NCBI GenBank assembly: GCA_964277755.1
Contig: CAXYJY010000043.1
Coordinates: 14,237 to 78,236 of the forward strand
Source of the DNA: an uncultured Hymenobacter sp.
Lineage (GTDB): Bacteria; Bacteroidota; Bacteroidia; Cytophagales; Hymenobacteraceae
Reading direction: 5' to 3'
DNA: 64,000 bases
Of the stretch, positions 13,604 to 44,629 are shown piece by piece. The notes beneath the pieces were generated by a model, which saw only the letters and a list, made by a program, of their open reading frames with translations, did no database searches and was not told the DNA's origin. Both the position numbers and the translations under genes were made by a program. Numbering within the stretch: position 1 is the first letter of the stretch; each line of letters begins with the position of its first letter.

Positions 13604-13644
13604 GGCGGGACGGCATCAGTTTTCTTCTGGCAAAAATTATCGCT

Positions 13645-15378: not shown

Positions 15379-16944
15379 CTACTGCACCAGCAATTTGCCC
15401 ACGCGCACGCGCCCCCCAGCCTCCAGCTGCACCAGGTACAAGCCCGCCGCCAGCTCTTGCAGCGGCAGCGGTACCTGGCGCGGGCCGGCCGGCTGCGCCT
15501 GATTAGTAAGCACGCGCACCAAGCGGCCGTTCTGGTCGAGCAGGCGCAAGCTCACGGGGCCAGCTTTTTCAAGGGTGAAGCTGGCGGTGGCGGAACCTAG
15601 CTCGGCGGGGTTGGGATGGAGGAGAAAGTCGTCGTCGGCCGCCGTGCTCACGGGCACTACGGCGCGGGTGGCCAGCGCCACGCTCTCATCGCCAGGCAGG
15701 TAGGGTACGATGTCGAAGTAGCCGAGCAGCATCTCGTCGGTGGTGTTTTCGCCCCACTGCACCTGCTGGGGTGGCGAGTTGGGCTGGCGCGGGTTGCTGG
15801 CGGTGTTGTCGTAGGTTACGTCGGCTTCGAGGCGGGCGCCGGCCGGTATTTTCTGCATGTTCAGGAAGCGGTAGTTGCCCTGCCAGCGGAAATTCCAGGA
15901 GTCGATTTTGGCCAGCTTGATGGTATCGCCGTTGGGCTTCACAGCCCAGATTTTCCACTTCTTGGCCAGCAAGTGCGAGTGCGGCAGCACCGAGAGCACG
16001 CTCACATTCTGCGGCACCGTCAGGCTGAAATGGAAGGTCTTGACCTGGTTGGCCGGAATCACGAACGGGCCGTTGGCGAGGCCGCTCCAGGGCTGGATGG
16101 CGGGCAGCGTCTGCACGTAGCGCGCCACCGGCTGGCGGCTGTAGAAGATGTTGAGCACCGACGAATCGGTCTGGGCCACGCTGGTGGGGCCATAGTGCAC
16201 CTGCACCAGCAGGCGGGCGTTTTTATAGAGCTTTTTGCCCAGACCGGTGGGGTAGAAGCGCGCCTGAGCGCCCGGCACCCAGCCCGCGAAGTTGTCCTCG
16301 ACGGTGGTAAAGCCGAAGCCGCCGAAGCTAGTGTAGCCGTAGCCGGGCGAAGCCGCGTCGAGCGCCGCGCCCTGGTTGGTGGTGTCGATGCCAATGATGG
16401 AATGGTGCACCAGGCTCTTGTTGCCGGGCCGGAACTCAATGGCCGACACGTCCTTATTGGCGGGCAGGGTCACGGGTAGCACAAAGACGCGGTACAAATC
16501 CTGGTTGTTGCCGGGGATGGTAAATTTCTGCGCCATCGGCACTACCAGGTCGGGCGTGCCGAGCTGCGAGCCGCTCGGGAAGGTGGGCACGGGCGGGGCC
16601 AGCGCGGGGTTGCCCTGCGGCATCCCGCCATCAACCCAATTCTTGATAAGCATGACCTCGGCGGTGCTCAGTACGTTCTCGTCGAGGTAGTGGCGGTAGT
16701 TGGGGTCGGGCTTCCAAGGTGGCATGTAGCCCGAGCCCGTCACGGCCTTGATAGTGAGGCCCCGGCTGGCTACGTCGGAGTAACTCAGCAGCGAAAACGG
16801 CGCTACCTCGCCTGGCCGGTGGCAGCGCGCGCAGTGGTTGTAGATGAGTGGCGCGATGTGCTCGCTGAAGTTGGGCGTGGTCTGGGCACGGCCGGGCAGG
16901 ACCAGGGCCAGCACCGCCAGCAGGAAGAATACTTGTTTCAGCAT
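15379..16944 (-). CDS. T9SS-secreted copper type II (PHM/DBH-like) monooxygenase-domain protein with monoheme cytochrome c motif
   Basis: CARCH motif; LVHHS, QVHYG, LPHSHL, TDEML copper-ligand pattern; LHPNP...GLYLV...KLLVQ CTD. Confidence 0.82.
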   Translation of the reverse strand: MLKQVFFLLAVLALVLPGRAQTTPNFSEHIAPLIYNHCARCHRPGEVAPFSLLSYSDVASRGLTIKAVTGSGYMPPWKPDPNYRHYLDENVLSTAEVMLIKNWVDGGMPQGNPALAPPVPTFPSGSQLGTPDLVVPMAQKFTIPGNNQDLYRVFVLPVTLPANKDVSAIEFRPGNKSLVHHSIIGIDTTNQGAALDAASPGYGYTSFGGFGFTTVEDNFAGWVPGAQARFYPTGLGKKLYKNARLLVQVHYGPTSVAQTDSSVLNIFYSRQPVARYVQTLPAIQPWSGLANGPFVIPANQVKTFHFSLTVPQNVSVLSVLPHSHLLAKKWKIWAVKPNGDTIKLAKIDSWNFRWQGNYRFLNMQKIPAGARLEADVTYDNTASNPRQPNSPPQQVQWGENTTDEMLLGYFDIVPYLPGDESVALATRAVVPVSTAADDDFLLHPNPAELGSATASFTLEKAGPVSLRLLDQNGRLVRVLTNQAQPAGPRQVPLPLQELAAGLYLVQLEAGGRVRVGKLLVQ

Positions 16945-16985
16945 AGCGTAAGTAACAGGTTTCGAGCTAATATATAAACGTGGCG

Positions 16986-17516
16986 TTACTTCTCAATAAA
17001 GCACCCCACCGGCTCGGTGCGCGGCACGGCCACCGGCCGGCCGGCCGCCAGGTCGGCCAGCGCCTCGGCCAGCTCGTGGTGCTGGCTCACGGTGCGGCGC
17101 TCGCCCAATGCGGCGTACCTATCATCGAGCCGGCCCTGGTATAAAATCCGGCCATCGGCCGCCATTACCAGCGCCTCGGGGGTAGCAGTGGCCTTGAAGC
17201 GGCGCGTGAGCTTTTGCTTGGGGTCGAGCTGCAAGGCAAACGGCACTGCGTACTTATTCTTAAACCCGGCCACCGACGCCGCCGTGGCCGTGCCGCCCGG
17301 GAACACGCCCACGAAGCGCACGCCCCGCGCCGCGTAGCGGGCGTGTAGCTCGCGCAAGGGCAGCGTGGCCTGCTGGCTGATGGGGCAGCTTTCGGCCAGA
17401 AATACGTACACCGTAAACGGCAGCTGCCGGCCGGGCGCGGGCGGCGAGCCCGCCCGGCCCACCTGCCCGCGCCCAACCAGCAGCGTAGTCAGGAACAAGA
17501 GTAAGAAATACTTCAT
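16986..17516 (-). CDS. Redoxin/thioredoxin-like periplasmic protein
   Basis: FLAESCPIS, ATATPEA, YQGRLDD, TEPVGCFI motifs; signal peptide. Confidence 0.85.
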   Translation of the reverse strand: MKYFLLLFLTTLLVGRGQVGRAGSPPAPGRQLPFTVYVFLAESCPISQQATLPLRELHARYAARGVRFVGVFPGGTATAASVAGFKNKYAVPFALQLDPKQKLTRRFKATATPEALVMAADGRILYQGRLDDRYAALGERRTVSQHHELAEALADLAAGRPVAVPRTEPVGCFIEK

Positions 17517-17603: not shown

Positions 17604-18536
17604 TTACTTGAAGCTCGGGATGCGGAACTGCACGCCCAGCGATGGAATGAACGTGGCACCGCTGAACGAGGTAGTGCTGCCATCGACCAGCGTGAAGGTG
17701 CCGTAGTTCTGGTAGTAGAAGCTGAGGGCGGGCACGAAATACACGTATTTGTAGCCGATTTTGGCGTTCAGAAACAGGCCGTAGGACGAAAAGCTATTGC
17801 TTTGGCTGGGTAGCTCGGGCAGCACAGCCGTGCCGGCGCGGTTGTAGAGGTTATTGGGCCGAAAGCCGTAGCTCACCCACGAGTGGGCGTACACCGCACC
17901 GTAGCTGATGGCCCCGATGCTCTCCTCCGCGCCCAGCGACTGGCTGATGGTGAGCGGAATCACTAAGTCCTGGCGGGTGGCCGAAAGGCCCAGCAGATTG
18001 TTGAGGTCGCCGAGGAAGGCGATTTTGGGCAGGCCCGCGCGCTGAATGGCATATTGCAGCCCGATGCTGGCGTAGGTGGTGCCGCCGGTAGCGCCGCGCT
18101 CGGGGTTTTCGACCGAGCCGGTGGGGCCGAGCAGCTGGTAGGCCGCGTCGAACACGTGCGAGCCGAAGGCGTACTTGTAGCCCGCGTCGAGGCGCGGCAC
18201 GATGCCGTAGCGGATGCTGAAGTCGGAGGCCGGCTGCACCGGGTCGACGAGGTAGGCAAGGGCGGCGGTTTGCACCTGGCTCACGGCGTCAGAGTAGTTC
18301 ACCTTCTGGCCTTCTTCGGCCTGGGTGCCGAGCCTGCTGGCGGCCTCTTTTACGGCCGCGCCGGCCTTGGCGAGCGGCGCGGTGGCTACGTTGAAGCTCT
18401 GGTTATAGGCTACCCGAAACTCGCCCTGGGGCGTCACTTTGCCCGAAGTCGTGATGTTGCGCGGGGCCGTACAGGCGGCCATGGTGGCGAGAAGCGAAAG
18501 GGCGGCGAGGCGCGCGGCAGTAGAGTAGGTAGGCAT
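17604..18536 (-). CDS. Hypothetical lipoprotein / outer-membrane protein
   Basis: Lipobox-like LATMAAC; aromatic beta-strand-rich C-terminus. Confidence 0.7.
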   Translation of the reverse strand: MPTYSTAARLAALSLLATMAACTAPRNITTSGKVTPQGEFRVAYNQSFNVATAPLAKAGAAVKEAASRLGTQAEEGQKVNYSDAVSQVQTAALAYLVDPVQPASDFSIRYGIVPRLDAGYKYAFGSHVFDAAYQLLGPTGSVENPERGATGGTTYASIGLQYAIQRAGLPKIAFLGDLNNLLGLSATRQDLVIPLTISQSLGAEESIGAISYGAVYAHSWVSYGFRPNNLYNRAGTAVLPELPSQSNSFSSYGLFLNAKIGYKYVYFVPALSFYYQNYGTFTLVDGSTTSFSGATFIPSLGVQFRIPSFK

Positions 18537-18552
18537 AAACGATAAAAGGTAA

Positions 18553-19771: not shown

Positions 19772-19773
19772 GG

Positions 19774-24557: not shown

Positions 24558-27146
24558 CTACGCTACGGCTTGCGGGCGGGCAGCCCCGGCGCGACCCTTG
24601 GCGGGCGCGGGGGCGGGCTTGGCCTTGGCGGTGCGGCGCTGCCGGATGCTGAGCGTGAGGCCCAGGCCCATGAGCAGGGTGCCGCCCCACAGCAGGTTGA
24701 TGAAGGGCTTTTCGGTGGCTTGCAGCACGATGTAGTCTTTGGCCGTGCTGCTCACGCCGAGCGTGAACTTGCCCTTCACGGGGTCTATCTGGTCGAGGGT
24801 GAGGCGGAGGCCCAGGTCCTCTACCTCATCGGGCACGCGGCCAATCTGGCGGTCGCGCAGCAGGAAAATGGGGTGGGCGTGGTACTGCCGGCCCTTCTCG
24901 CCGCTGATAATCATGTCGGCTTGCAGGGCAATGTCGCCGGGCTGGAGCTTGATGCCGGGCACCTCGTGCGCCTGCTCGATGGCCCGGAACACGGCGAAGT
25001 AGTCGTTCAAAAACAACGTATCGCCTACGCTCAGCTCGTGCGGCACGCTGGGGCTCCAGGGCTGCTCTTTGCGCGGGTCGGGCACGGAGGTAATGTGCGA
25101 GTAGATATCGTGGCTGGCAAAGTGCAGCAGCGCCGGCGAGGGCAGCAGGCCGCCCATCTCCTCATTGACCTGGGCGCGGGGGTAAAGCACGAAGCTCTCG
25201 CCCGTCTTGCGGTCTTCGTAGTTGACGCGGTAGTAGGTGTTCTCGGGGCGAATTTCCAGGGTGTCGCCGGTTTTGTAGTACACTTTGTCGCCGCGCTTGA
25301 TGTCGCCGCGCGCGATGGCCCGGTAGTCGTCGTCGGTGCGGTAAAGCAGCTGCGTGTTCACGTAGCCCGGCACGGTGGGCACGTCGAGGTACTGGCCGGT
25401 GTAGGTTACGTCGTACTTCTGCATGGGCACGGTTTCGTTGCGCAGCAGCAGCACGTTGTCGCGATTTTCCTCGGTGCTCATTTGCTGCGAAATAAGCTGG
25501 CCGGTTACGTTGCGCGAGATGGTGTTGGAGTAGCCTGCCGAGCCCAGCATGCCGAGTAGCATCAGGGCGATGCCTACGTGGGCCACTGCCCCGCCCGAGA
25601 GCGTGACGCCGCGCCGCCACAGCCCGAACAAGGTGCTCAAATTAGCCAGCAGGCCAAACAAGCCTGCCGCCAGCAGCACCGCGTAGGGCAGCGTGATGGT
25701 GTGCCCAAAGTAGCGCAGCAGCAGCACGCCCAGCGCCGTGCCCAGCAGCGAGAGCATCACGGTAGGGGCGAAAGCATTGATGACCGACGCCTTATCGTTG
25801 CGCTGCCACCACATCACCTGCCCGATGCCCGAGAGCAGGGCAATGAGCACGCCGCTCCAGAGCTGAATGCGGGTATAAAACGAAACCTGGTCGGCCGGCA
25901 AAGCCAGATTGGCCTTAACGCCGAAGAAGCCCAGGAAGGCTTTATAAACCGGAATGCTGGTCGTAAACACCACCTGGAAGGCGGCCAAACACAGCACCGT
26001 GGCCCCCACGAACACCCACAGTTCGGGCGAGTAGGCGCTCAGCTCTTTCTCCGAAATCGGAATTTCCTTCCAGCGGCGCACCAGCAGCACCACGGCCAGC
26101 ACGGTGAAGAAGCCGAGGTAAATCAGCAATTGCCCCGACAAACCGAGGTCGGTAAACGAATGCACCGAGGCCGAGCCCAGCACCCCGCTGCGGGTGAGGA
26201 AGGTAGCGTAAAGCACCAGTACGAACGTGGCCACCACCAAGGCAAACGAGGTGCGCAGCCCGATGCGGCGCTTCTGCCACAGCACCATGCCGTGCAGCGC
26301 CGCGATGAGCACCAGCCAAGGAATGAACACGGCGTTCTCCACGGGGTCCCAGTTCCAGTAGCCGCCGAAGTTCAGCGTCTCGTAGGCCCAATACGCGCCC
26401 ATCATGATGCCTACGCCCAGCACCGCGCCGCCTAGCGACGTCCACGGCAAAGCGGGCTTGACCCAGGTAGTCAGCTCTTTTTTCCAGAGGCCCGCGATGG
26501 CGAAGGCAAATGGCACTAGCGTGAGCGCAAAGCCCAGAAACAGCGTGGGCGGGTGAATCACCATCCAGTAGTTCTGGAGCAGGGCGTTGAGCCCGGTGCC
26601 GTCTTTGGGCACGAAGTCGGGCTGGGTTTTCCACACCGGCAGGTCGGTGAGGAAGTCGCGCAGCAAGATGAAAGGCGAGGAGCCCACCTTGGTGCCGCCC
26701 ACCACGACGCCCAGAATCATGCTCACCAAGAAGGCTTGCACCGAGGCGAAAATGGCCAGCACCGGGGCTTCCCAGCTGCGGTTGAATTTCATAATGCCCA
26801 GCCCGATGAGCACGTGCCAGAATATCCAGAGCAGGAAACTGCCCTCCTGGCCTTCCCAGAAGCAGGAAATGATGTAGTACACCGGCAGGTGGTTCGACGA
26901 GTGCGACCAGGCGTAGTAGTACTCGTAGCGGTGCTCGGCGATGATGTTGAACAAGCACACCACCACGCCCAGCACCGCCGCGCCGTGCACGAAAAACGCG
27001 CCCCGCGCCAGGCGCAGCCAGCTGGCATCGGCCTCGCCGAGCGCCCGGCCCCGCGCCGCCTGAAAATAGCCGTAGGCCGACACCGCCGCCGCCACGAAAG
27101 CCAGAATAACGCTGGCCTGACCGAGATTTCCGATAAGTAAATTCAC
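24558..27146 (-). CDS. ccmF: Cytochrome c heme lyase CcmF
   Basis: WEGQEGSFLLW, IHPPTLFLG, WAYETLNFGGYWNWDPVEN, LTRSG, SVHSF. Confidence 0.93.
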   Translation of the reverse strand: MNLLIGNLGQASVILAFVAAAVSAYGYFQAARGRALGEADASWLRLARGAFFVHGAAVLGVVVCLFNIIAEHRYEYYYAWSHSSNHLPVYYIISCFWEGQEGSFLLWIFWHVLIGLGIMKFNRSWEAPVLAIFASVQAFLVSMILGVVVGGTKVGSSPFILLRDFLTDLPVWKTQPDFVPKDGTGLNALLQNYWMVIHPPTLFLGFALTLVPFAFAIAGLWKKELTTWVKPALPWTSLGGAVLGVGIMMGAYWAYETLNFGGYWNWDPVENAVFIPWLVLIAALHGMVLWQKRRIGLRTSFALVVATFVLVLYATFLTRSGVLGSASVHSFTDLGLSGQLLIYLGFFTVLAVVLLVRRWKEIPISEKELSAYSPELWVFVGATVLCLAAFQVVFTTSIPVYKAFLGFFGVKANLALPADQVSFYTRIQLWSGVLIALLSGIGQVMWWQRNDKASVINAFAPTVMLSLLGTALGVLLLRYFGHTITLPYAVLLAAGLFGLLANLSTLFGLWRRGVTLSGGAVAHVGIALMLLGMLGSAGYSNTISRNVTGQLISQQMSTEENRDNVLLLRNETVPMQKYDVTYTGQYLDVPTVPGYVNTQLLYRTDDDYRAIARGDIKRGDKVYYKTGDTLEIRPENTYYRVNYEDRKTGESFVLYPRAQVNEEMGGLLPSPALLHFASHDIYSHITSVPDPRKEQPWSPSVPHELSVGDTLFLNDYFAVFRAIEQAHEVPGIKLQPGDIALQADMIISGEKGRQYHAHPIFLLRDRQIGRVPDEVEDLGLRLTLDQIDPVKGKFTLGVSSTAKDYIVLQATEKPFINLLWGGTLLMGLGLTLSIRQRRTAKAKPAPAPAKGRAGAARPQAVA

Positions 27147-27166
27147 AGGCAAACTAATTTTTCTTG

Positions 27167-27174
27167 CAAAGGTA
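27167..27174 (-). promoter_or_regulatory. -7 element TACCTTTG upstream of ccmF
   Basis: Matches TAnnTTTG 21 nt upstream of GTG 27146. Confidence 0.6.
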
Positions 27175-27225
27175 CCGCCCGCGGCGGGGTGGGGGTGCGG
27201 TTGGTGGGTAGCGTTAGTTTAGGAC

Positions 27226-27343
27226 CGTCATGCTGAGCGGAGCGCAGCGAAGTCGAAGCATCTCTACCGCATCGTTACAGGCGTCAGGAGTTAGTTCACC
27301 GGTAGAGATGCTTCGACTCCGCTGCGCTCCGCTCAGCATGACG
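27226..27343. repeat. CGTC-type REP doublet
   Basis: CGTCATGCTGAGCGGAGCGCAGCGAAGTCGAAGCATCTCTACC and inverted arm. Confidence 0.92.
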
Positions 27344-27381
27344 ATACTTGGACAAGATGGCTTTCTGAACGGGATTACCGC

Positions 27382-28488
27382 CTAGTACCCCGGCGTACTC
27401 AGCGGCAGCAGTAAATGCTCGGTAAACGTGGCCCCGCGTACGGGGCGGCAGGTTACGTCCACCGCTACTTTGCTCAGGCCGGCATCGCGCCAGGGCTGGG
27501 CGTAGAGGCGGGCGCGCGGCACGTCGCCGGGCTGGTTGGTAAGGCTCAGGGCGCGCAGCAGGTTCCCGTTTTGCGGATTGGTGACGAGAAAGCTGACGTA
27601 GGCCCCGCGCGGGTAGCGCGCCAGTGGCAAATCGAGAAACGACGTGCCGCCGTCGATGGCGCCCGCATACACGGGCTTGAGCTTGCTGTAGCCCACCCAC
27701 TGCTGCTTGAGCAGGGCGGGCGGCTCGGGAGCATCGTCGTTTTCGGCCACTACCTGGTAAAGGTACTGGCCCACGCCGGGCAGCGTATCGGTGATGGTGT
27801 AACTGGCTCGCCGCGCGCCGTACACGTTGCGCGTGATGTGTACCCGCCGGATTTCGGTGGCCCGAAACCCGCGCTGCTCGCGCCGCAGCACCCGGCAGTG
27901 CGTGGCCGTGGGCAGCGAGTCGGGCACCTCCCAGCTCAGCTCGATGAGGCGGCTGGTGCCGGGTGCGGTGTCCGGAATGCCAGGCGCGGGCACGGCGGGC
28001 AGGCCCCGCGCCCGGCCGCTCACTTGCAGCGTGAAGGTGCAGTAGTCTTTGAGGTAGCCATCGACGTCGAGCAGGTAGGGCACGCCCGCTTGCAGGTCGG
28101 GTAGCGTCACAAACAAGTCGTCCTGCGTGCCGAAGGAGATGCACGACAAAATGCGGTAGGTAGCCGGCTCGCACGGCGGGCCCGTGAGCACTACCAGCTG
28201 CACGCCACGCACGTCGCGGCAGCGCTGCCCGCCGATGTTCACGTAGTAGGTGCCCGCCGTGGGCGGCCGAAACTCAAACCACTGGTCGTTGTGGTACTCG
28301 ATGCATCGGCCCGTCAGGCGCTCGTCTACGCAGCTCGGCTGCACGGTGCAGCCGGTGGTAGTGGAGGTGATAGTTTCCTCGGCGCGTAGCGAGCGGCGGT
28401 TTTCGATGTTGTCGTTGGCCACCTGGGCGCGGGCGGCCAGGCTGAGCCCACAAATAACCCCGGCTGTCATGCTGAGCTTGCGAAGCAT
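27382..28488 (-). CDS. Hypothetical secreted protein (Cys-rich PPC-like domain plus FN3/Ig-like domain)
   Basis: MLRKLSMTAGVICGLSLAARAQ signal peptide; NDQWFEF, YLLDVDGY, IELSWEV motifs; start uncertain (28545/28488/28470). Confidence 0.75.
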   Translation of the reverse strand: MLRKLSMTAGVICGLSLAARAQVANDNIENRRSLRAEETITSTTTGCTVQPSCVDERLTGRCIEYHNDQWFEFRPPTAGTYYVNIGGQRCRDVRGVQLVVLTGPPCEPATYRILSCISFGTQDDLFVTLPDLQAGVPYLLDVDGYLKDYCTFTLQVSGRARGLPAVPAPGIPDTAPGTSRLIELSWEVPDSLPTATHCRVLRREQRGFRATEIRRVHITRNVYGARRASYTITDTLPGVGQYLYQVVAENDDAPEPPALLKQQWVGYSKLKPVYAGAIDGGTSFLDLPLARYPRGAYVSFLVTNPQNGNLLRALSLTNQPGDVPRARLYAQPWRDAGLSKVAVDVTCRPVRGATFTEHLLLPLSTPGY

Positions 28489-28554
28489 GCCGTCACGTTG
28501 GAACGAACCAAGAAAGCGTGATAGGATGCTTCGCAAGCTCAGCATGACAGCCGG
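28460..28554. repeat. GTCA-type REP doublet overlapping the 5' end of the hypothetical gene
   Basis: CCGGCTGTCATGCTGAGCTTGCGAAGCAT ... ATGCTTCGCAAGCTCAGCATGACAGCCGG. Confidence 0.9.
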
Positions 28555-28588
28555 AATTAGGGTAGGAAAAGTGAATTGCCGCGCCAGC

Positions 28589-29026
28589 TTACAGCTTGGC
28601 CGTCGCGGGCGGGGTTTCCTTGCCTAGGTCCTTCTCCACGTATTTGCTGGGGCACTTGGTCAGAATCTGGTCGGCCACGAAGACGTTGTCTTTCATCGCG
28701 CCCACGATTACTACCTGCTCCGACTTGTCAAGGTCGGCCGGGGCGGGGTTGTGGTACACTACGCGCTGGGCCACATTCAGCGTATCAACCAGCGTGAAGG
28801 CGAAGAAATTGGGGTCACGCCGGGCGTCGTATTCCAGCCCGATGGGCTGCTTCTCGGCGTTGCGGGGCAGCGTGCCCACCACGTGTACCTTATTGGCATT
28901 GCCGGCCGCCGCTTGCAGCCGCGCCTCGGCAAAGGTGACGTAGGAGCTGGCCCCCGACATCGTGCTAATAATGACCCCCACCGCCGCCGCGATGATGAGC
29001 AGGATAAAGATGTGCGTCTTCTTCAT
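28589..29026 (-). CDS. ccmE: Heme chaperone CcmE, CxxxY variant
   Basis: N-terminal TM, OB-fold, ILTKCPSKY. Confidence 0.92.
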   Translation of the reverse strand: MKKTHIFILLIIAAAVGVIISTMSGASSYVTFAEARLQAAAGNANKVHVVGTLPRNAEKQPIGLEYDARRDPNFFAFTLVDTLNVAQRVVYHNPAPADLDKSEQVVIVGAMKDNVFVADQILTKCPSKYVEKDLGKETPPATAKL

Positions 29027-29070
29027 AAGTTACTGTAACAACGTTCTAGCCTGAGAAGTGTCCGGGCGGT

Positions 29071-29165
29071 TGTCCTTGCGAGCGCAGCGAAGCAATCGCA
29101 CCAGAGCTGGGCGGCTGAATGGCGCACTCAGCAGGTGCGATTGCTTCGCTGCGCTCGCAAGGGCA
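29071..29165. repeat. GTCC-type REP doublet (inverted relative of 4116 copy)
   Basis: TGTCCTTGCGAGCGCAGCGAAGCAATCGCACC ... GGTGCGATTGCTTCGCTGCGCTCGCAAGGGCA. Confidence 0.9.
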
Positions 29166-29170
29166 GACGC

Positions 29171-29416
29171 TTAGTTATTTACCTCGCGCTCTAGCCGGCT
29201 CACCTTGCCATCGAGCCGGATGAGGTACACCAGCAGCCCCGTCACGATGATGACGAGCACCAGCACTACCACGTAGATTTTGCCGCTGGCGCGCAGGGCG
29301 TCGGCCATTTCGGGCTCGGCGGCGGGAGCTTGGGCGAAGGCTGCGCCGGCCAGCAGCAGCAGGGGCAGCAGCAGGGCCACGGCCCGGCTAAGCCAGTTGT
29401 TTTTCTTGCTTTTCAT
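29171..29416 (-). CDS. ccmD: CcmD-family small membrane protein
   Basis: MADALRASGKIYVVVLVLVII...YLIRLDGKVSRLE; between ccmC and ccmE. Confidence 0.75.
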   Translation of the reverse strand: MKSKKNNWLSRAVALLLPLLLLAGAAFAQAPAAEPEMADALRASGKIYVVVLVLVIIVTGLLVYLIRLDGKVSRLEREVNN

Positions 29417-30065
29417 AAATCTTCTCTTTCACAAAGGCAAAGCGACAAGCCACTTCCGTAATCCAGACGCCGAGTAGCGTCCAGCCAATTACGGCGGGGT
29501 AAAATACCATCCGCATGGCGCTATCGAGGTCGTACTTCGAGAAGCCGGGGTTGCCGCCCATGCCGGGGTGCAGCGAGGCCTCGGCCAGACGGGGCATGAT
29601 GAACAGCAGCGGAATGGCCGCCGAAAACGCAAAAATATTGTAGATAGCCGACAAGCGCGCCCGCTGCTGCTCGTCGCGCACCGAGCCGCGCAGCACCAGG
29701 TAGGCCGCGTAGATGAGCATGGTTACGGCCGCGCCGTTGAGCTTCACGTCGGTCGTCCACCAGGTGCCCCAGGTGTAGCGCGCCCAGAGGCTGCCCGTGA
29801 GCAAGCCCAGCACGCCCAGCAAAATGCCCGTTTTGGCCGACTCGTGGGCCAGCGTATCGAGGCGCGTGCTGGGGTCGCGCAGGTAGCGGATGGAGTTGAT
29901 AACCGAGGCCAGCAGGATGATGGTCATGCCAAACCACATCGGCACGTGGAAGTAGAGGTTGCGCTCCGTCTCGTTGAGGATGGCCAGGCGCGGCACGTGG
30001 CCCAGGAAGCCCATCGCTACTGTGTAGAGCAGCAGCACGATGGTCAGGTATTTCCACCACTTCAT
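29388..30065 (-). CDS. ccmC: Heme exporter protein C
   Basis: YFHVPMW, WARYTWGTWWTTDVKL (WWD), SLHP histidines. Confidence 0.92.
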   Translation of the reverse strand: MKWWKYLTIVLLLYTVAMGFLGHVPRLAILNETERNLYFHVPMWFGMTIILLASVINSIRYLRDPSTRLDTLAHESAKTGILLGVLGLLTGSLWARYTWGTWWTTDVKLNGAAVTMLIYAAYLVLRGSVRDEQQRARLSAIYNIFAFSAAIPLLFIMPRLAEASLHPGMGGNPGFSKYDLDSAMRMVFYPAVIGWTLLGVWITEVACRFAFVKEKIYEKQEKQLA

Positions 30066-39187: not shown

Positions 39188-39297
39188 TTTCAGCCCGTGC
39201 GCAGTTAGCAAGGGCGCGGCCGGAACCTGGCGCGAATGCTTCAGGTTGGGGCCGGGCGGCCCGGCCGGGCTAGTATGCAGTAAATCAGCGGTTGTCT

Positions 39298-42200
39298 ATG
39301 CCAAAAATTTTCCTCTCTGTCTGGGCTCTGGTAGTGTTGCTGGGCGGCGGGCTGCCGGCCCATGCCCAAAGCGGCGAGCAAACCGCCCCCGCCCGCGTGA
39401 GCTGGGGCGGCTACGCGCAGCTGCCCGCCGCCAACGGTACCACCCGCAAGGTGCCCACCTTCCGCGAAGCCTACCACGGGCCGGGCGAGCTGGTGGGCAC
39501 CTTCACGCTGCGGGTGCCCGGCACCGTGGCCACTGGCACCCTGCGCGATGCCGTGTACGAGCCCTTCCCGGCCGCCGACGCGGCCCTGCTGAGCGCCGCC
39601 ACGCTCACGGCCGCGCCGGGCGTGCGCCTGCGCTTCGGCTACGAGGCGCGCCGGCCCTACAGTTACGTGCTGGTGCAGCCCGCCCGCCGCAACCCCCAGA
39701 CCGGGCAGCCCGAGCGGTTGGTGTCCTTTACTTACGCCTACCAGACCGATGGGGGCGGAGCCAACCGCCCCACGGCCCCGGTCGCCCGGCCGCACAACAT
39801 CCAGACGTCGGTGCTGAACAGCGGCGATTGGTTTAAAATCGGGGTGCCCACCAGCGGCATGTATAAGCTCGACCGCGACGCGCTCGGCAAGCTGGGCATC
39901 AACACCGGCGCTACCGACCCACGCCGCATTCAGGTGTATGGCAACGCCACGGGGATGTTGCCCCAGGCCAACGCCGCCCCCCGCCCCGACGACCTAGTAG
40001 AGAATAACGTGTTGCTGGTGAACGACAACAACGACGCCACCTTCGACGCCAACGAGTTTATTTTGTTCTACGCGCCGGGGCCGCATACCTGGGCCATCGA
40101 CAGCACCAACAAGGTGCCCACCAGCTTCCGCCACCTCAACAACGTGTACTCCGACACGGCCTACTATTTTGTGCGGGTAGGGCCGGCGGCCGGGCGGCGC
40201 GTGCCCACGGCCGCCGCGCCGGCCGGGCAGCCCACGGGCGCGCCCATCACTACGTTTATGGACCGCCGCTTCTACGAGCGCGATTTGGTTAATCTGATGC
40301 ACTCAGGCCGGCACTGGCTGGGCGAAACTTTCAGCGCTGGCTCTTCGCAAAGCTTCATCTTCAGCGCCGATGGCCAGCCCGCCCTTACCGACCTGGTGGT
40401 GGGTAGCCCGGCCCGCCTGCGGGTGGCCGTGGCGGCGGCCACGTTGCAGCCCTCGGCCTTTCAGGTCAGCCTCAACGGAGCCGCGCTGCCGGGCAGCACG
40501 GCGATTACGCCGCTCTCGAACGCGGCTTTCAGTACGGTAGCCAATACCAACGTCGGCACTTACACCACGGCCATTACCAGCGCCACGAATGAGCCGCAGG
40601 TGACGCTGAATTTCCTGGCGTCCGACCCTACGGCGTCCGGCTACCTCGACTACCTCGAGCTGCTGGTGCAGCGCCAGCTGCGCCTGAGCGGCTCGGCGTT
40701 GGAGTTTCGGGCAATCGCGCTGCGCGGGGCGGGCTCGGTGGGCACCTACACGGTCGACAATGCCGGCGGGGCGCAGGTGTGGGAAGTAACCAACCCGCGC
40801 CGCCCGCGCGCGCAGGCGCTCAGCAACGGCAGCTTCGTGGCCTACACCGACTCGGTGCGCGAGTACGTGGCGTTTCAGCCCAATGGCAGCTTTCCCACGC
40901 CCCGGCCCTTCGGCCGCGTGGCTAACCAAAACCTGCACGCCCTCAACGTGAGCGGCGACCTAGATTTGGTTATCGTGACTTACCCGGCCTTCCGGCGGCA
41001 GGCCGAGCGCCTGGCCCAGCACCGCCGCGACAACAACGGCCTGAAAGTAGAGGTAGTGACGACCAGGCAGATATACAACGAGTACAGCTCGGGCGCGCAG
41101 GACGTGACGGCCATCCGCGACCTGATGAAGCAGGTGTACGACCGCAACCCCGACCCCAGCGTGCGCCGCAACTACCTGCTGCTGTTCGGCGATGCGTCGT
41201 TCGACTACAAGTCCTCGGCCTTCAACGACCAAAGCCAGCAGCCCGGCTGGTGGAAAAGCCGCCGCCCTTTCAAGGTCATCGACGCCGACTTGTACAACCA
41301 GAATATGGTGCCGACCTACGAGTCGCGCGAGTCATTCTTGCCGGTGGCCGGCTATCGCGACAATGCGGAAGGCGTGTCGTCGTACTCCTCAGAAGACTAC
41401 TACGGCCTGCTCGACGATAACGAGGGCCGGTGGGAAGAGTTTGGGGTGGGTGCCTACGAGTCGTGCGACATCGGCATCGGCCGCCTGCCGGTGCGCCCCC
41501 CGCGCGACCGCCGCGAGCAGGCCACCAACGACGACCAGGCCCGCCAGGTGGTCGATAAGATTATCGCCTACGACGCTACCGCCAGCTTTGGCAAGTGGCG
41601 CAACCGCATGACGCTCACCGCCGACGACAACGACCCCAACATCGGCATGGCGTTCACCATCGAGTCGGAAACGGACTTTGCCCCCGAAATCCAGAAAGAC
41701 GAGCCGGCCTACAACATCCGCAAGGCCTACCTCGACCTGTACCCGCAGGTGAGCGTGGCGGCCGGGCAGCGCTCGCCGGCCGCCGAGGCGGCCATCAACG
41801 ATGCCCTCGACCAGGGCTCACTGCTGATTGGCTACACCGGCCACGGCGGCCCCACCGGCCTCGCCGACGAGCGCATCATCACCACGGCCTCGTTGCAAGC
41901 CCTCACCAACCAGAATCGGCTCACGTTCTTCGTCACCGGCACCTGCGACCTCAGCACCTACGACAACCCCGAGCTAACCTCGGCCGGCGAAACCGTGCTG
42001 ACCGACAACGTGACCGGCGGCGCGGTAGGGCTGTTTACGACTACGCGGGTAGTGTATGCGAATTTTAACACGCAGCTGGTGAAGTCGTTCTACGGCCAGG
42101 TGCTGTCGCGCAACGCGGCCGGCGACCTGCCGCTCATCGGCAATGCCAGCCGCATGGCTAAGATAACGGCCGGCCCCAGCGGCGACCTCAACAACCGCAA

Positions 42201-43335
42201 CTACACCCTGCTAGCCGACCCCACCACCCGCCTGGCCTACCCCCGGCAGCGCGTGGTTATCGACTCCATCAACGGCCGCAAGGTAGCGTCGGTACTGGTG
42301 AGCCTCGACACGCTGAAGGCCCTGAGCCAGGCCCGCGTGAGCGGCCACATCGAAAACCGGGGCGCGTTTAACGCGGGCTTCAACGGCACGGCCGACATCA
42401 CGATTTTTGATAAAGCCAATACCGTGAACACCCTCGGTGACCAGGGCGGCGTGCCCACCCCGGTGCAGGTGCAGGAAACGGTAGTGTACAGCGGGCAGGC
42501 GCGCGTGAGCAGCGGGCGCTTCAGCGTGAAGTTCATCGTGCCCAAGGACATCAACTACAGCCCTGGCCTGGGCAAAATCAGCCTCTACGCCGCCGACTAC
42601 ACCGCCAAGACCGACGCCCAGGGCTACCAGCTGGTGCCCATCGGCGGGGCGGCCAAAAACGCGCCCGGCGACACCACGCCCCCCGAGGTGCGGCTGTTTA
42701 TGGACGACGACTCGTTTGTGTCGGGCGGCCTCACGGGCGTGAATACGCTGCTGCTGGGCAAGCTCTTCGACCTTTCGGGCATCAATACCTCCAACGCCGG
42801 CGTGGGCCACGAGCTCACGGCTACCCTCGACAACGACCCCGCCAAGCTGGTTATCGTGAACGACTCGTACACGGCGGCCGTCAACGACTTCACCCGCGGC
42901 CAGATTCGCTACAATTACCGCAGCCTCGCGCCCGGCCCGCATACTATTAAGGTGAAAGCCTGGGATACCTATAATAACTCGGCAGAAGGCACCGTGGAGT
43001 TTATCGCGGCCCAGAAGGAAAGCCTGGCCCTCGACCACGTGCTGAACTACCCCAATCCGTTCAGCAACACTACCACGTTTCACTTCGACCACAACCGCGC
43101 CGGGCAGGAGCTCGACGTGCAGGTGCAGATATTCACGGTGGCTGGCCGCCTGGTGAAAACCCTGCACGCGAACGTGATGACCAGCACCTCGCACGACAAG
43201 ACGATAACCTGGAATGGCCGCGACGACTACGAAGACCAGCTGGCGCGCGGCGTGTACGTGTACCGGATTTTGGTGCGGTCGACTGCTGATAGCCAGCAGG
43301 TTAGTAAATTTGAAAAATTAGTGCTATTAAATTAG
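39298..43335 (+). CDS. porU: T9SS sortase PorU (C25 peptidase)
   Basis: VLNSGDWFKI, LLLFGDASFDYK, YTGHGG (His), TGTCD (Cys), LNYPNPF CTD; upstream of porV. Confidence 0.96.
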   Translation: MPKIFLSVWALVVLLGGGLPAHAQSGEQTAPARVSWGGYAQLPAANGTTRKVPTFREAYHGPGELVGTFTLRVPGTVATGTLRDAVYEPFPAADAALLSAATLTAAPGVRLRFGYEARRPYSYVLVQPARRNPQTGQPERLVSFTYAYQTDGGGANRPTAPVARPHNIQTSVLNSGDWFKIGVPTSGMYKLDRDALGKLGINTGATDPRRIQVYGNATGMLPQANAAPRPDDLVENNVLLVNDNNDATFDANEFILFYAPGPHTWAIDSTNKVPTSFRHLNNVYSDTAYYFVRVGPAAGRRVPTAAAPAGQPTGAPITTFMDRRFYERDLVNLMHSGRHWLGETFSAGSSQSFIFSADGQPALTDLVVGSPARLRVAVAAATLQPSAFQVSLNGAALPGSTAITPLSNAAFSTVANTNVGTYTTAITSATNEPQVTLNFLASDPTASGYLDYLELLVQRQLRLSGSALEFRAIALRGAGSVGTYTVDNAGGAQVWEVTNPRRPRAQALSNGSFVAYTDSVREYVAFQPNGSFPTPRPFGRVANQNLHALNVSGDLDLVIVTYPAFRRQAERLAQHRRDNNGLKVEVVTTRQIYNEYSSGAQDVTAIRDLMKQVYDRNPDPSVRRNYLLLFGDASFDYKSSAFNDQSQQPGWWKSRRPFKVIDADLYNQNMVPTYESRESFLPVAGYRDNAEGVSSYSSEDYYGLLDDNEGRWEEFGVGAYESCDIGIGRLPVRPPRDRREQATNDDQARQVVDKIIAYDATASFGKWRNRMTLTADDNDPNIGMAFTIESETDFAPEIQKDEPAYNIRKAYLDLYPQVSVAAGQRSPAAEAAINDALDQGSLLIGYTGHGGPTGLADERIITTASLQALTNQNRLTFFVTGTCDLSTYDNPELTSAGETVLTDNVTGGAVGLFTTTRVVYANFNTQLVKSFYGQVLSRNAAGDLPLIGNASRMAKITAGPSGDLNNRNYTLLADPTTRLAYPRQRVVIDSINGRKVASVLVSLDTLKALSQARVSGHIENRGAFNAGFNGTADITIFDKANTVNTLGDQGGVPTPVQVQETVVYSGQARVSSGRFSVKFIVPKDINYSPGLGKISLYAADYTAKTDAQGYQLVPIGGAAKNAPGDTTPPEVRLFMDDDSFVSGGLTGVNTLLLGKLFDLSGINTSNAGVGHELTATLDNDPAKLVIVNDSYTAAVNDFTRGQIRYNYRSLAPGPHTIKVKAWDTYNNSAEGTVEFIAAQKESLALDHVLNYPNPFSNTTTFHFDHNRAGQELDVQVQIFTVAGRLVKTLHANVMTSTSHDKTITWNGRDDYEDQLARGVYVYRILVRSTADSQQVSKFEKLVLLN

Positions 43336-43450
43336 GTTATTTGTGAGTTACTTGGCCGCTTAAATAGGATTACCTCGCATTAGCTAATTTCACTTTTAAA
43401 TAGGGTTATTCACCTGTTTTCTGCCGCGTTCGCCCGTTTTACCAAACCCC

Positions 43451-44629
43451 ATGACCTTGACTTTTTCTCGTTCGCTGGCCGTAGTGCCGGTGCTTTTGCT
43501 GGGGGCTTCGGCGGCTCTGGCCCAGAACCACACCATCACCACGGCCGTGCCGATTCTGACGCTGGCGCCCGACGCCCGCGGGTCGGCGCTGGGTGAAGCG
43601 GGGGCGGCTACCTCGCCCGATGCCAACGCCGCGTTTTACAACCCCGGCAAGCTGGGCTTCGTGCCCTACAAGTACTCCTTCTCGCCCAGCTACTCGCCCT
43701 GGCTGCGCAAAGTGACCGATGACATGAGCCTGAGCTACCTCTCGGGCTACGGTAAGGTGGGCGAGCGTGGCGCGTTCGCGGCCTCGCTCATGTACTTCAG
43801 CATGGGCCAGATAGACTACCGCGACGGCAGCAATCTGCCCAGCGGTAGCTTCAACCCCAAGGAGTACGCCGTGTCGGTATCGTATGGCCAGCGCCTGGGT
43901 GAGAACTTCGGCATCGGCATCTCGGCGCGCTACGTGCGCTCGAACCTTATCGGGTCTTACGCTGGCAACGACGCGCAGTCGGGCAACTCGTTTGCCGCCG
44001 ACCTTGGCGCGTACTACAGCAAGGAAATGGGCCAGTACAACGTGGCCTTCGGCGCGTCGATTTCCAACATCGGCAACAAGATGGTGTACCGCGACGCCGC
44101 CACGTCGAGCTTCCTGCCCACTACGCTGCGCCTGGGCACGGCCATCACCCGCGAGCTTGACCCCTACAACAAAATCACCTTCGTGCTCGACGCTACCAAG
44201 CTGCTCGTGCCCTCGCCCTATTACGACGATAGCAAGCCTTCGAACGACCCTGGCGTAAAAGCCCGGAATACCGAGCGCCAGCAGCAGGGCATCGTGTCGG
44301 GCATCTTCAGCTCGTTTAGCGATGCGCCGGGCGGGTTTAAGGAGGAGATGCAGGAAATCAACCTGGGTGGCGGCCTGGAGTACGCCTATGACAATAAAAT
44401 CATGGCCCGCGCCGGCTATTTCTACGAGAACCGCTACAAGGGCGACCGCCAGTACTTCTCGTTTGGCCTGGGCGCGCGCCTGTCGGTGTTCGGCGTCGAT
44501 GGCACGTACCTGGTGCCCAACTCGTCGGCCAACCCGCTGGCCGAGACCATCCGCGTCTCGCTGCACTTCAACCTGGAGAAGCTGGCCGACGCCTTCAGTG
44601 ACGGCGGCACCGGCGGCGCTACAAACTAA
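43451..44629 (+). CDS. porV: T9SS outer-membrane shuttle PorV
   Basis: ITTAVPILTLAPDARGSALGEAG, YSPWLRKV, RAGYFYE, NPLAETIRVSL. Confidence 0.96.
   Translation: MTLTFSRSLAVVPVLLLGASAALAQNHTITTAVPILTLAPDARGSALGEAGAATSPDANAAFYNPGKLGFVPYKYSFSPSYSPWLRKVTDDMSLSYLSGYGKVGERGAFAASLMYFSMGQIDYRDGSNLPSGSFNPKEYAVSVSYGQRLGENFGIGISARYVRSNLIGSYAGNDAQSGNSFAADLGAYYSKEMGQYNVAFGASISNIGNKMVYRDAATSSFLPTTLRLGTAITRELDPYNKITFVLDATKLLVPSPYYDDSKPSNDPGVKARNTERQQQGIVSGIFSSFSDAPGGFKEEMQEINLGGGLEYAYDNKIMARAGYFYENRYKGDRQYFSFGLGARLSVFGVDGTYLVPNSSANPLAETIRVSLHFNLEKLADAFSDGGTGGATN

What the first reader, a model, noticed from the sequence alone, without database searches (positions are those of the whole stretch)
15379..17516. 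T9SS-exported heme-c/copper monooxygenase-like enzyme with a separate redoxin partner
Seen: one protein carries CARCH, the full PHM/DBH-type ligand pattern (HH+H for CuH, HxH+M for CuM) and a T9SS CTD; the upstream gene is a signal-peptide redoxin (CPIS...GC). Established: eukaryotic copper type II monooxygenases need ascorbate; in some bacteria redoxin, cytochrome and monooxygenase domains are fused, with unknown function. Inference: a cell-surface oxygenase with a built-in heme electron relay, matured by the Ccm system encoded 8 kb away and then secreted. A c-type cytochrome passing through T9SS would be notable. Substrate unknown.
Basis: partly seen in the sequence, partly recalled or inferred. 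Interest (0 to 1): 0.62.

Follow-up and report, generated by a model that had tools for sequence, protein, structure and literature searches.

The report
Exported haem-copper monooxygenase with redoxin partner
A Hymenobacter-type bacterium encodes a relative of the animal copper enzymes that make noradrenaline and amidated hormones, with its own cytochrome c and a cell-surface export tag. It is paired with a small two-cysteine thiol protein, the family is very large, and I found no published study of it.

Summary

**The enzyme.** ORF 15379-16944(-) has four parts:
- a signal peptide;
- a monohaem cytochrome c domain (C38-x-x-C41-H42, Met74);
- a PHM/DBH-fold two-copper core (H180/H181/H250 and H322/H324/M405);
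- a type-A T9SS C-terminal domain.

The AlphaFold model matches PHM (Foldseek E 2e-13). All ten ligands are kept in 136 of 151 family representatives.

**The partner.** The upstream 176-aa redoxin is adjacent on the same strand in 62 of 80 loci from several phyla. It is fused to the enzyme in 9 of the 269 family proteins examined. Its constant cysteines are C44 and C172, not a CxxC pair. It belongs to the uncharacterised 2CVB/2YWI/3U5R subgroup.

**Machinery.** The window holds Ccm-type haem-attachment genes plus PorU and PorV; SprA lies elsewhere in the genome.

**Points added here.**
- PHM's peptidyl-glycine anchor residues are absent, so peptide amidation is unlikely.
- The redoxin has no export tag, and none of the fused forms found carries one.
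- This is the only CxxCH protein among about 127 predicted T9SS cargoes in this genome.

Substrate, electron source and actual secretion remain inferred. This scan had already noted the family on at least eight other genomes. I found no published study of it.

The parts
15379..16944 (-). Gene for the 521-aa haem-copper enzyme: signal peptide, cytochrome c domain, PHM/DBH-type core, linker, T9SS CTD
   Evidence: ORF. 93% identical orthologue in a Hymenobacter MAG and thousands of relatives. AF2 model with pLDDT 80.
16885..16944 (-). Sec signal peptide (residues 1-20), with likely cleavage ...GRA|QTT
   Evidence: Read from the sequence: a hydrophobic h-region, then A-Q. 'AQ' is conserved at this position in alignment A1. 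No signal-peptide predictor was available.
16585..16881 (-). Monohaem cytochrome c domain (residues ~22-120): C38-A-R-C41-H42, Met74 in the invariant MPPW motif
   Evidence: Invariant in A1. CxxCH kept in 144-145 and Met74 in 149 of 151 representatives. Pfam Cytochrome_CBB3 scores 18.2 bits here and 34.1 and 37.1 bits in relatives P0241 and P0254. Helical in the model, with low pLDDT at the empty haem site.
15670..16572 (-). Two-domain PHM/DBH-fold copper core (residues ~125-425). CuH = H180, H181, H250; CuM = H322, H324, M405
   Evidence: Foldseek: the top 31 PDB hits are PHM and human DBH, E 2e-13 to 1e-9, TM about 0.6-0.65 on the target. Relative P0385 aligns to PHM at E 4.4e-6, with its HH, QxHY and HxH motifs in register with PHM's. 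Conservation.
15382..15630 (-). Type-A T9SS C-terminal sorting domain (residues ~439-521), preceded by a disordered linker (426-438)
   Evidence: TIGR04183 scores 29.1 against a cut-off of 23. The A1 profile hits solved T9SS CTDs 8glj_D and 8glk_D. β-sandwich in the model, and the linker has pLDDT below 50.
16986..17516 (-). Gene for the 176-aa exported thioredoxin-fold partner (C44-P-I-S47 ... G171-C172); it has no CTD
   Evidence: Pfam Redoxin 36.2 bits. The family profile hits 2cvb_A at 1e-24, 2ywi_A at 3e-20 and 3u5r_E at 2e-16 over full length. AF2 pLDDT 90.8, with the same three entries as best Foldseek hits. C44, P113 and C172 are invariant.
24558..30065 (-). Ccm-type (System I-like) cytochrome c maturation genes: CcmF 24558-27152, CcmE 28589-29026, CcmC 29388-30065
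   Evidence: Pfam Cytochrom_C_asm, CcmF_C and CcmE. All fall below NCBIfam equivalog cut-offs, so they are divergent.
39292..44629 (+). T9SS sortase PorU (ORF 39292-43335) and outer-membrane shuttle PorV (ORF 43451-44629)
   Evidence: NF033707 scores 1207 bits and NF033710 scores 435 bits, both over their cut-offs, at C43:54047-57565 and C43:57750-58811. These map to window 39811-43329 and 43514-44575.

Best explanation
The pair encodes an exported oxygen-activating copper enzyme and its dedicated thiol partner.

**The enzyme.** It is made with a Sec signal peptide. In the periplasm it receives one covalently bound haem c at C38/C41/H42, with Met74 as the likely sixth ligand, from the Ccm-type system encoded nearby. 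It also receives two copper ions, in a PHM/DBH-type core.

**Chemistry, by analogy with PHM and DBH.** CuM (H322, H324, M405) binds O2 and hydroxylates a C-H bond. CuH (H180, H181, H250) supplies the second electron. The fused cytochrome c takes the place of ascorbate as the one-electron feeder of CuH.

**Export.** The C-terminal type-A domain directs the folded holo-protein through the T9SS (SprA, PorV, PorU) to the cell surface or the medium.

**The partner.** The upstream thioredoxin-fold protein works through C44 and C172 and stays in the periplasm. In this organism it most likely acts on the enzyme before export. It could prime or reduce the metal centres, keep the CxxCH thiols reduced for haem attachment, or deliver Cu(I). 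In lineages without T9SS, where it can be fused to the enzyme, it may be the standing reductant.

**Substrate.** Unknown, and probably not a glycine-extended peptide.

**Shown:** domain architecture, ligand conservation, fold, gene linkage and fusions, and the presence of the machinery. **Inferred:** haem and copper occupancy, the direction of electron flow, the redoxin's role, and secretion.
For: - **Fold:** the AF2 model (pLDDT 80) finds PHM and DBH as its top 31 PDB matches, with E down to 2e-13.
- **Sequence link to PHM:** relative P0385 matches PHM at E 4.4e-6. Its HH, QxHY and HxH motifs align with PHM's VHHML, QVHYG and HTHHLGK stretches, which by published numbering hold H107/H108, H172 and H242/H244.
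- **Ligands:** all ten are invariant in A1 and present in 136 of 151 representatives. The residues aligning with PHM's Tyr in DTYFC and Gln in QVHYG (Y79 and Q170 by recalled numbering) are largely conserved here as Y151 and Q248.
- **Pfam:** relatives pass the cut-offs for Cu2_monooxygen (P0281, 42.1 against 30), Cu2_monoox_C and Cytochrome_CBB3.
- **CTD and T9SS:** the CTD is over the TIGR04183 cut-off. SprA, PorU and PorV are present. About 127 CTD ORFs occur in the genome. Longer relatives place PKD/Ig stalk domains before strong CTDs, which is typical of surface cargo.
- **Ccm genes** lie in the window.
- **Redoxin linkage:** it is adjacent on the same strand in 62 of 80 loci from Bacteroidota, Planctomycetota, Verrucomicrobiota, Latescibacterota, Acidobacteriota, Armatimonadota and others. 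It is the only conserved neighbour. It is fused N-terminally in 8 proteins and C-terminally in 1.
- **Pre-export role:** the redoxin has no CTD, and none of the 9 fused proteins has one, while 227 of the 269 family proteins on hand do.
Against: - No coordinates were returned, so Fe-to-CuH distance and ligand geometry were not measured. pLDDT is below 50 around the haem motif.
- The protein's own Pfam scores for the copper and cytochrome domains are below the cut-offs.
- Once exported, a haem c domain has no obvious electron source. The relay idea then needs an external reductant.
- The fusions with the redoxin would fit a standing electron-donor role better than a maturation role.
- The fused sample is small (9 proteins).
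- Some family members have lost copper ligands (P0302, P0303, P0346, P0357), so not every member is catalytic.
Confidence: 0.6

Rival explanations
1. The redoxin is the steady-state electron donor: cytoplasmic thioredoxin passes electrons through a CcdA/DsbD-type membrane protein to redoxin C44/C172, then to haem c, CuH and CuM. The enzyme would do its real work in the periplasm. The CTD would serve later disposal or display, or a minor pool.
For: Fusions of redoxin, cytochrome and copper core in one chain occur in both orders. Linkage is equally strong in CTD forms (38 of 49 assessable loci) and non-CTD forms (24 of 29). The redoxin's nearest characterised relatives are reducing periplasmic thiol-disulfide oxidoreductases such as ResA, DsbE and StoA.
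Against: In this genome the enzyme carries a valid CTD and the redoxin carries none. No fused form found has a CTD. The canonical second cysteine of CxxC is missing here and in half the family. Thiol-to-haem one-electron transfer without a flavin or metal mediator is unusual (general knowledge).
Confidence: 0.25
2. The redoxin is purely a maturation factor. It would be either a dedicated CcmG/ResA-like reductase for the enzyme's CxxCH motif or a Cu(I) chaperone using C44/C172. It would play no part in turnover.
For: The window enzyme's only cysteines are the CxxCH pair, so any thiol exchange with it must target that motif. No canonical DsbE/CcmG scores over its cut-off in the genome. The redoxin is periplasmic while the enzyme is exported. 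Two invariant cysteines could bind Cu(I), as other thioredoxin-fold copper chaperones of the Sco type do (general knowledge).
Against: Permanent fusion of a maturation factor to its client is uncommon, yet fusion arose in both orders. The Sco-type CxxxC...H motif is absent. Other cytochromes c in the genome are matured without such a partner (the enzyme is single-copy).
Confidence: 0.3
3. The redoxin protects rather than feeds the enzyme. It would act as a peroxiredoxin-like scavenger of the H2O2 released when the copper site turns over uncoupled, with C44 as the peroxidatic and C172 as the resolving cysteine.
For: Pfam AhpC-TSA scores 34.4 bits. Peroxiredoxins (PrxQ/BCP, 1-Cys Prx) appear among the weaker Foldseek matches. 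One paper treats the C-terminal cysteine of 2ywi as a possible resolving cysteine (PMC3091736).
Against: The peroxiredoxin PxxxT/SxxC context is absent: the sequence here is V-F-L-A-E-S-C44. The best matches are TlpA/ResA-like proteins, not peroxiredoxins. After export the enzyme would be out of the redoxin's reach.
Confidence: 0.1
4. It is a bacterial orthologue of PHM that amidates glycine-extended peptides, for example a secreted peptide or RiPP.
For: Same fold, same six copper ligands and similar second-sphere residues as PHM.
Against: The position aligned with PHM's carboxylate anchor R240 is S/G/A across the family, and the N316 equivalent is hydrophobic (PHM numbering and roles from established structures). 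No precursor-peptide gene, lyase (PAL) gene or other conserved neighbour was found among ORFs of 90 aa or more in 80 loci.
Confidence: 0.04

Closest known systems
Peptidylglycine alpha-hydroxylating monooxygenase (PHM, catalytic core of PAM; PDB 1PHM, 1OPM, 3MLL)
   Same: Two β-sandwich domains. A CuH site with HH+H and a CuM site with HxH+M, with similar spacing. The QxHY and DEM motifs are conserved. Best structural match: E 2e-13, TM 0.65 on the target.
   Different: About 17% identity. There is no R240/N316 peptide-carboxylate anchor and none of PHM's disulfides, since this protein has only the two haem cysteines. It carries a fused cytochrome c where PHM uses soluble ascorbate. It is bacterial, carries a T9SS tag and has a thiol-protein partner.
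Dopamine beta-hydroxylase (human DBH, PDB 4ZEL) and its relatives MOXD1 and tyramine beta-monooxygenase
   Same: The same copper core (Foldseek E 7e-12). DBH also has an extra N-terminal domain placed ahead of the catalytic core.
   Different: DBH's N-terminal domain is a DOMON β-sandwich, not a c-type cytochrome. DBH is ascorbate-driven and sits in the vesicle lumen.
Cellobiose dehydrogenase cytochrome domain feeding lytic polysaccharide monooxygenases (a working analogy only)
   Same: A secreted haem domain acts as a one-electron shuttle to an extracellular copper oxygenase.
   Different: The folds are unrelated. The haem is type b rather than c. The donor and the copper enzyme are separate proteins. 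There is no evidence here for a polysaccharide substrate.
Thioredoxin-like proteins TTHA0593 (2CVB/2YWO), Geobacillus 2YWI and Sinorhizobium SMc02350 (3U5R)
   Same: Full-length match including the active-site C-P and the C-terminal (V/I)-G-C-x-I motif. Profile E values are 1e-24 to 2e-16, and these are the best Foldseek hits.
   Different: Their depositors give them no function. 2CVB and 2YWI carry C-N-H-C-P, whereas here it is S-C-P-I-S. They were not checked for a copper-enzyme neighbour.
ResA, CcmG/DsbE and StoA (periplasmic or extracytoplasmic apocytochrome and protein-disulfide reductases)
   Same: The thioredoxin-fold core, the cis-proline, an exported location and a link to cytochrome c.
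   Different: They match only over the core (residues ~36-120). They need CxxC, whereas here the motif is CxxS with a far C-terminal cysteine. DsbE scores 13.5 bits against a cut-off of 123.

Membership tests
PHM/DBH copper type II monooxygenases (Pfam PF01082 + PF03712) | Two-domain β-sandwich catalytic fold | tested here: met
   The AF2 model's top 31 PDB hits are PHM and DBH: E 2e-13, probability 1.00, TM 0.57-0.65 on PHM.
PHM/DBH copper type II monooxygenases (Pfam PF01082 + PF03712) | CuH ligands HH...H and CuM ligands HxH...M | tested here: met
   H180, H181, H250, H322, H324 and M405 are invariant in A1 and kept in 145-150 of 151 representatives. The first five are in register with PHM's corresponding His motifs through relative P0385. 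That alignment ends before PHM's Met ligand (M314), so its equivalence with M405 rests on the shared DEM motif and was not aligned here.
PHM/DBH copper type II monooxygenases (Pfam PF01082 + PF03712) | Score over Pfam's gathering cut-offs | tested here: inconclusive
   The window protein scores 20.4 on PF03712 against a cut-off of 23 and gets no PF01082 hit. Relatives pass: P0281 scores 42.1 against 30 and 24.1 against 23, and P0339 scores 34.5 against 23.
PHM/DBH copper type II monooxygenases (Pfam PF01082 + PF03712) | Ascorbate as the electron donor | not testable with these tools
   This needs an enzyme assay. The fused cytochrome c suggests a different donor.
PHM proper (EC 1.14.17.3) | Peptidyl-glycine carboxylate anchor (R240, with N316 and Y318) | tested here: not met
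   Position 318 is S/G/A, position 407 is L/V/I/F, and position 409 is Y or F in only about two thirds of members. The alignment to PHM runs through, and PHM residue roles come from published structures.
c-type cytochrome (monohaem, His/Met type) | CxxCH haem-attachment motif | tested here: met
   C38-A-R-C41-H42 is invariant and present in 144-145 of 151 representatives, most of the rest being N-terminally truncated. These are the only cysteines in the protein.
c-type cytochrome (monohaem, His/Met type) | Distal methionine ligand | tested here: inconclusive
   Met74, in the motif Y-M-P-P-W, is kept in 149 of 151. That it ligates the iron is an inference.
c-type cytochrome (monohaem, His/Met type) | Export signal plus a haem-attachment system in the genome | tested here: met
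   An N-terminal signal peptide is read from the sequence. CcmC, CcmE and CcmF lie in the window.
c-type cytochrome (monohaem, His/Met type) | Covalently bound haem | not testable with these tools
   This needs haem staining, a pyridine haemochrome assay or mass spectrometry.
T9SS type-A cargo | C-terminal sorting domain over the TIGR04183 cut-off, at the extreme C-terminus | tested here: met
   29.1 bits against 23, covering residues 443-521. The profile matches solved CTDs 8glj_D and 8glk_D. A disordered linker precedes it.
T9SS type-A cargo | T9SS machinery present (SprA translocon, PorV, PorU) | tested here: met
   SprA 2186 bits, PorU 1207 bits and PorV 435 bits, all over their cut-offs.
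T9SS type-A cargo | Actual secretion and CTD removal | not testable with these tools
   This needs secretome proteomics in wild type against T9SS mutants.
Thioredoxin-fold redoxins (TlpA/ResA-like; 2CVB/2YWI/3U5R subgroup) | Thioredoxin fold with cis-proline | tested here: met
   AF2 pLDDT 90.8. Foldseek hits 2ywo and 2cvb at E 3e-11 with TM 0.72. P113 is invariant. Pfam Redoxin scores 36.2 against a cut-off of 26.6.
Thioredoxin-fold redoxins (TlpA/ResA-like; 2CVB/2YWI/3U5R subgroup) | CxxC redox motif | tested here: not met
   The motif here is C44-P-I-S47. Position 47 is C in 30, S in 21, T in 7 and A in 2 of 60 partners. The invariant second cysteine is C172.
Thioredoxin-fold redoxins (TlpA/ResA-like; 2CVB/2YWI/3U5R subgroup) | C-terminal G-C-x-I motif shared with 2CVB, 2YWI and 3U5R | tested here: met
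   It is aligned. G171 and C172 are invariant in A2.
Peroxiredoxins (AhpC/TSA) | PxxxT/SxxC peroxidatic motif | tested here: not met
   The sequence is T-V-Y-V-F-L-A-E-S-C44, with no Thr or Ser at position -3. Peroxiredoxins appear only as weak structural matches.

The most novel reading that the evidence does not exclude
The pair is the working unit of a new, ascorbate-independent way of driving PHM-class copper monooxygenases. A two-cysteine thiol protein and a built-in cytochrome c would feed or arm the copper sites. In Bacteroidota the holo-cytochrome would be carried through the T9SS to act as an extracellular oxidative enzyme on an environmental substrate, such as plant- or polymer-derived compounds, drawing on outside reductants. 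I found no report of a c-type cytochrome as T9SS cargo or of a cytochrome-driven PHM-type enzyme, so it may be the first of each.
Probability: 0.25. Interest if true: 0.8.

Novelty: new variant of a known kind. Interest (0 to 1): 0.6.

Why it matters
PHM/DBH-type enzymes are textbook animal enzymes driven by ascorbate. This window holds a member of a very large bacterial family: 4,575 clusters at 50% identity score E ≤ 1e-30. The family keeps the full catalytic apparatus but swaps the electron supply for a covalent cytochrome c and a dedicated thiol protein.

Working it out would bring several gains:
- a new electron-delivery solution for copper oxygenases;
- a likely new C-H hydroxylation activity of unknown substrate, spread across soil, water and plant-associated bacteria;
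- a test of whether the T9SS can export a folded, cofactor-loaded cytochrome c.

The split between an exported enzyme and a periplasmic partner is a concrete puzzle that simple genetics could resolve.

Tried and rejected
- **PDB sequence searches with the window enzyme.** Both the protein itself and the 26-sequence profile found only T9SS CTDs. The link to PHM came instead from the fold search and from relative P0385.
- **NCBIfam.** It has no family for the core; only the CTD is recognised.
- **Literature.** Six full-text searches covered bacterial PHM/DBH homologues, Cu2_monooxygen in bacteria, and c-type cytochromes as T9SS cargo. None found a relevant paper; one candidate I read proved irrelevant. 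A seventh search gave nothing relevant. An eighth, on the PDB entries, showed only that 2YWI is an uncharacterised protein with a C-terminal cysteine.
- **Other conserved neighbours.** I clustered 758 ORFs from 80 loci. Only the redoxin recurs. The 329-aa upstream ORF recurs in Hymenobacter but in the opposite orientation, so I dropped it from the unit.
- **A second CTD ORF with CxxCH in the genome (C47:28478-30445).** Its motif lies in a spurious N-terminal ORF extension, upstream of the real signal peptide.
- **A link between CxxC versus CxxS in the redoxin and CTD presence.** None was found.
- **Domain order as a mirror of electron flow.** This is weakened by P0322, which has the redoxin at the C-terminus.
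- **Promoter and terminator scan.** Results were at chance level, and sigma-70 rules do not suit Bacteroidota.
- **Model coordinates.** None are returned, so no metal-to-metal distances could be measured.
Full report
**What is there.** The finding covers two adjacent minus-strand ORFs: 15379-16944 (521 aa) and, 41 bp upstream, 16986-17516 (176 aa). The larger protein is 93% identical to a protein from a Hymenobacter MAG. It has thousands of relatives, most annotated only as 'T9SS type A sorting domain-containing protein' and a few as 'ascorbate-dependent monooxygenase' or 'mono/diheme cytochrome c family protein'. The genome is complete by marker genes and holds one copy.

**Domain evidence for the enzyme.**
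- By itself the protein gives only sub-threshold Pfam hits for Cu2_monoox_C (20.4 bits, cut-off 23) and Cytochrome_CBB3 (18.2 bits, cut-off 27). It gives an above-threshold NCBIfam hit for the T9SS type-A domain (29.1 bits, cut-off 23).
- A 26-sequence alignment (A1) shows these residues as invariant: C38, C41, H42, M74 (in Y-M-P-P-W), H180, H181, H250, H322, H324 and M405.
- An AlphaFold2 model built on A1 (pLDDT 80, pTM 0.67) has four parts. These are a helical N-terminal domain, two β-sandwich domains, a disordered linker (426-438) and a C-terminal β-sandwich.
- Foldseek against the PDB returns PHM and human DBH as the top 31 hits: E 2e-13 to 1e-9, TM about 0.6-0.65 on PHM. Nothing comparable follows.
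- A family member, P0385, matches rat PHM by plain phmmer at E 4.4e-6. Its VVHHIL, QMHYH and PHMHLLGK stretches align with PHM's TVHHML (H107/H108), QVHYG (H172) and HTHHLGK (H242/H244). The window protein carries the same motifs: LVHHSI, QVHYG and PHSHLLAK.
- Other members pass Pfam's own cut-offs for Cu2_monooxygen, Cu2_monoox_C and Cytochrome_CBB3.
- Across 151 representatives of 50%-identity clusters, all ten ligands are present in 136. Most exceptions are truncated fragments, and a handful have lost copper ligands.
- The equivalents of PHM Y79 and Q170 are also largely conserved, as Y151 and Q248.

The ligand pattern is therefore real, homologous to PHM/DBH, and far beyond chance.

**What it is not.**
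- The position aligned with PHM's R240, which clamps the peptide's C-terminal carboxylate, is S/G/A across the family.
- The N316 equivalent is hydrophobic.
- No precursor peptide, lyase or other gene travels with the enzyme.

I therefore do not file it as a PHM orthologue, and I expect Gly-extended peptides to be poor substrates.

**Haem.** The window protein has exactly two cysteines, both in CxxCH. A signal peptide (…GRA|QTT, read by eye) places the protein in the periplasm. Divergent but recognisable CcmC, CcmE and CcmF genes sit 7 to 12.5 kb away. Covalent haem binding is thus well supported as a prediction, but it is untested.

**Export.**
- The CTD is at the extreme C-terminus, behind a disordered linker.
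- The genome has SprA. PorU and PorV lie in this same window, in ORFs 39292-43335 and 43451-44629.
- With a CTD profile that I built and iterated on all genome ORFs, about 127 ORFs end in a CTD. Only this one has a genuine CxxCH; a second hit is an ORF-extension artefact.
- In longer relatives, PKD/Ig-type stalk domains sit between the enzyme and a strong CTD, as in typical surface cargo.
- Relatives outside Bacteroidota end right after the copper core and have no CTD.
- I found no paper describing a c-type cytochrome as T9SS cargo. The library is limited, so this is not proof of absence.

**The partner.**
- The 176-aa protein has a leader peptide and no lipobox cysteine.
- It scores above the cut-off for Pfam Redoxin and models as a thioredoxin fold with pLDDT 90.8.
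- In 80 loci fetched from one-genome-per-species contigs, a homologue lies on the same strand directly upstream in 55 and directly downstream in 7. The rate is similar for CTD forms (38 of 49 assessable) and non-CTD forms (24 of 29). The phyla include Bacteroidota, Planctomycetota, Verrucomicrobiota, Latescibacterota, Acidobacteriota and Armatimonadota.
- It is the only recurrent neighbour.
- Natural fusions exist: redoxin-cytochrome-copper core in eight proteins, and copper core-redoxin in one, P0322.
- Its invariant residues are C44, D98, P113 (the cis-proline), Y126, G128, G171 and C172. The canonical second cysteine of CxxC (position 47) is C, S, T or A.
- The family profile matches three structural-genomics proteins over their whole length, including the C-terminal G-C-x-I motif: 2CVB/2YWO (E 1e-24), 2YWI (3e-20) and 3U5R (2e-16). 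ResA, DsbE and StoA match only over the core.
- None of the three has an assigned function. One paper notes 2YWI's C-terminal cysteine as a possible resolving cysteine (PMC3091736).

**How it most likely works.** The enzyme is exported by Sec, receives haem c from the Ccm-type system and takes up two coppers. It is then moved by the T9SS to the surface or the medium. CuM activates O2 and hydroxylates a C-H bond. CuH supplies the second electron and is recharged by the fused cytochrome c. All of this is inferred from homology and from the invariable fusion.

The redoxin's role is the open point.
- Fusions favour a standing reductant.
- In this organism, though, the redoxin lacks a CTD, and no fused form among the 269 family proteins on hand carries a CTD, while 227 of those proteins do.
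- I therefore favour a periplasmic, pre-export role here: reductive priming, haem-motif reduction or Cu(I) delivery.
- The fused sample is small, with only nine proteins.
- What reduces the haem after export is unknown. An external reductant would be needed.

**Distribution and novelty.**
- A profile search of 1.84 billion cluster representatives gives 4,575 proteins at E ≤ 1e-30.
- In an even sample of 301 Bacteroidota genomes, 21 have the gene, so its distribution there is patchy.
- Literature searches found no study of the family.
- This scan has already noted the same family on at least eight other genomes, with similar conclusions. My tests agree independently.
- New points from this window are the missing peptide anchor, the mutual exclusion of CTD and fused redoxin in the sample, the unique status among this genome's T9SS cargo, and PorU/PorV in the same window.

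**Limits.**
- No model coordinates were available, so there are no metal distances.
- No signal-peptide predictor was available.
- PHM residue roles and numbering come from published structures as I recall them, not from a tool result.

Noticed in passing
window 39292-44629 (+): The T9SS sortase PorU (1347-aa ORF) and the shuttle PorV (392-aa ORF) sit side by side about 22 kb from the cargo gene. Both score far over their NCBIfam cut-offs.
   Followed up: partly
window 24558-30065 (-): The Ccm-type cluster is divergent. CcmF (864 aa), CcmE and CcmC pass Pfam but fall well below NCBIfam equivalog cut-offs. A 387-aa ORF (27382-28545) between CcmF and CcmE matches no family. No DsbE/CcmG scores over its cut-off anywhere in the genome.
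   Followed up: partly
window 17604-18593 (-): A 329-aa ORF with a lipoprotein-like leader (…LLATMAAC) matches no Pfam or NCBIfam family. It lies next to the redoxin in Hymenobacter relatives too (62-64% identity) but is inverted there, so it is probably not part of the unit.
   Followed up: partly
window 18752-20183 (+): A thioredoxin-reductase-type flavoprotein (339 aa) is followed by a 2Fe-2S ferredoxin (106 aa), facing away from the redoxin side. Both are cytoplasmic and are not conserved next to the module elsewhere.
   Followed up: no
P0367, P0241, P0258, P0254 (family members): Several members have unusual architectures. P0367 is redoxin-cytochrome-copper core fused to an FGE-sulfatase domain. 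P0241 is a tandem double enzyme with EF-hands. P0258 carries a C-terminal Kunitz domain. P0254 is a double redoxin-enzyme repeat. These may hint at protein or peptide substrates.
   Followed up: no
P0302, P0303, P0346, P0357, P0269, P0299: These full-length family members have several copper ligands replaced (for example H180R, H322Q, M405L/A/Q) while the haem motif is kept. They may be non-catalytic derivatives.
   Followed up: no
L027, L055, L061, L075: These loci hold two tandem copies of the enzyme gene. In L027, L061 and L075 a single redoxin gene lies between the copies; L055 shows no redoxin hit.
   Followed up: no
window 7293-15162 (+): Four tandem paralogous β-propeller (lactonase-like or YVTN-type) proteins are followed by a T9SS-CTD protein that converges on the enzyme gene. 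Another note of this scan covers them, and they are not conserved next to the module.
   Followed up: no
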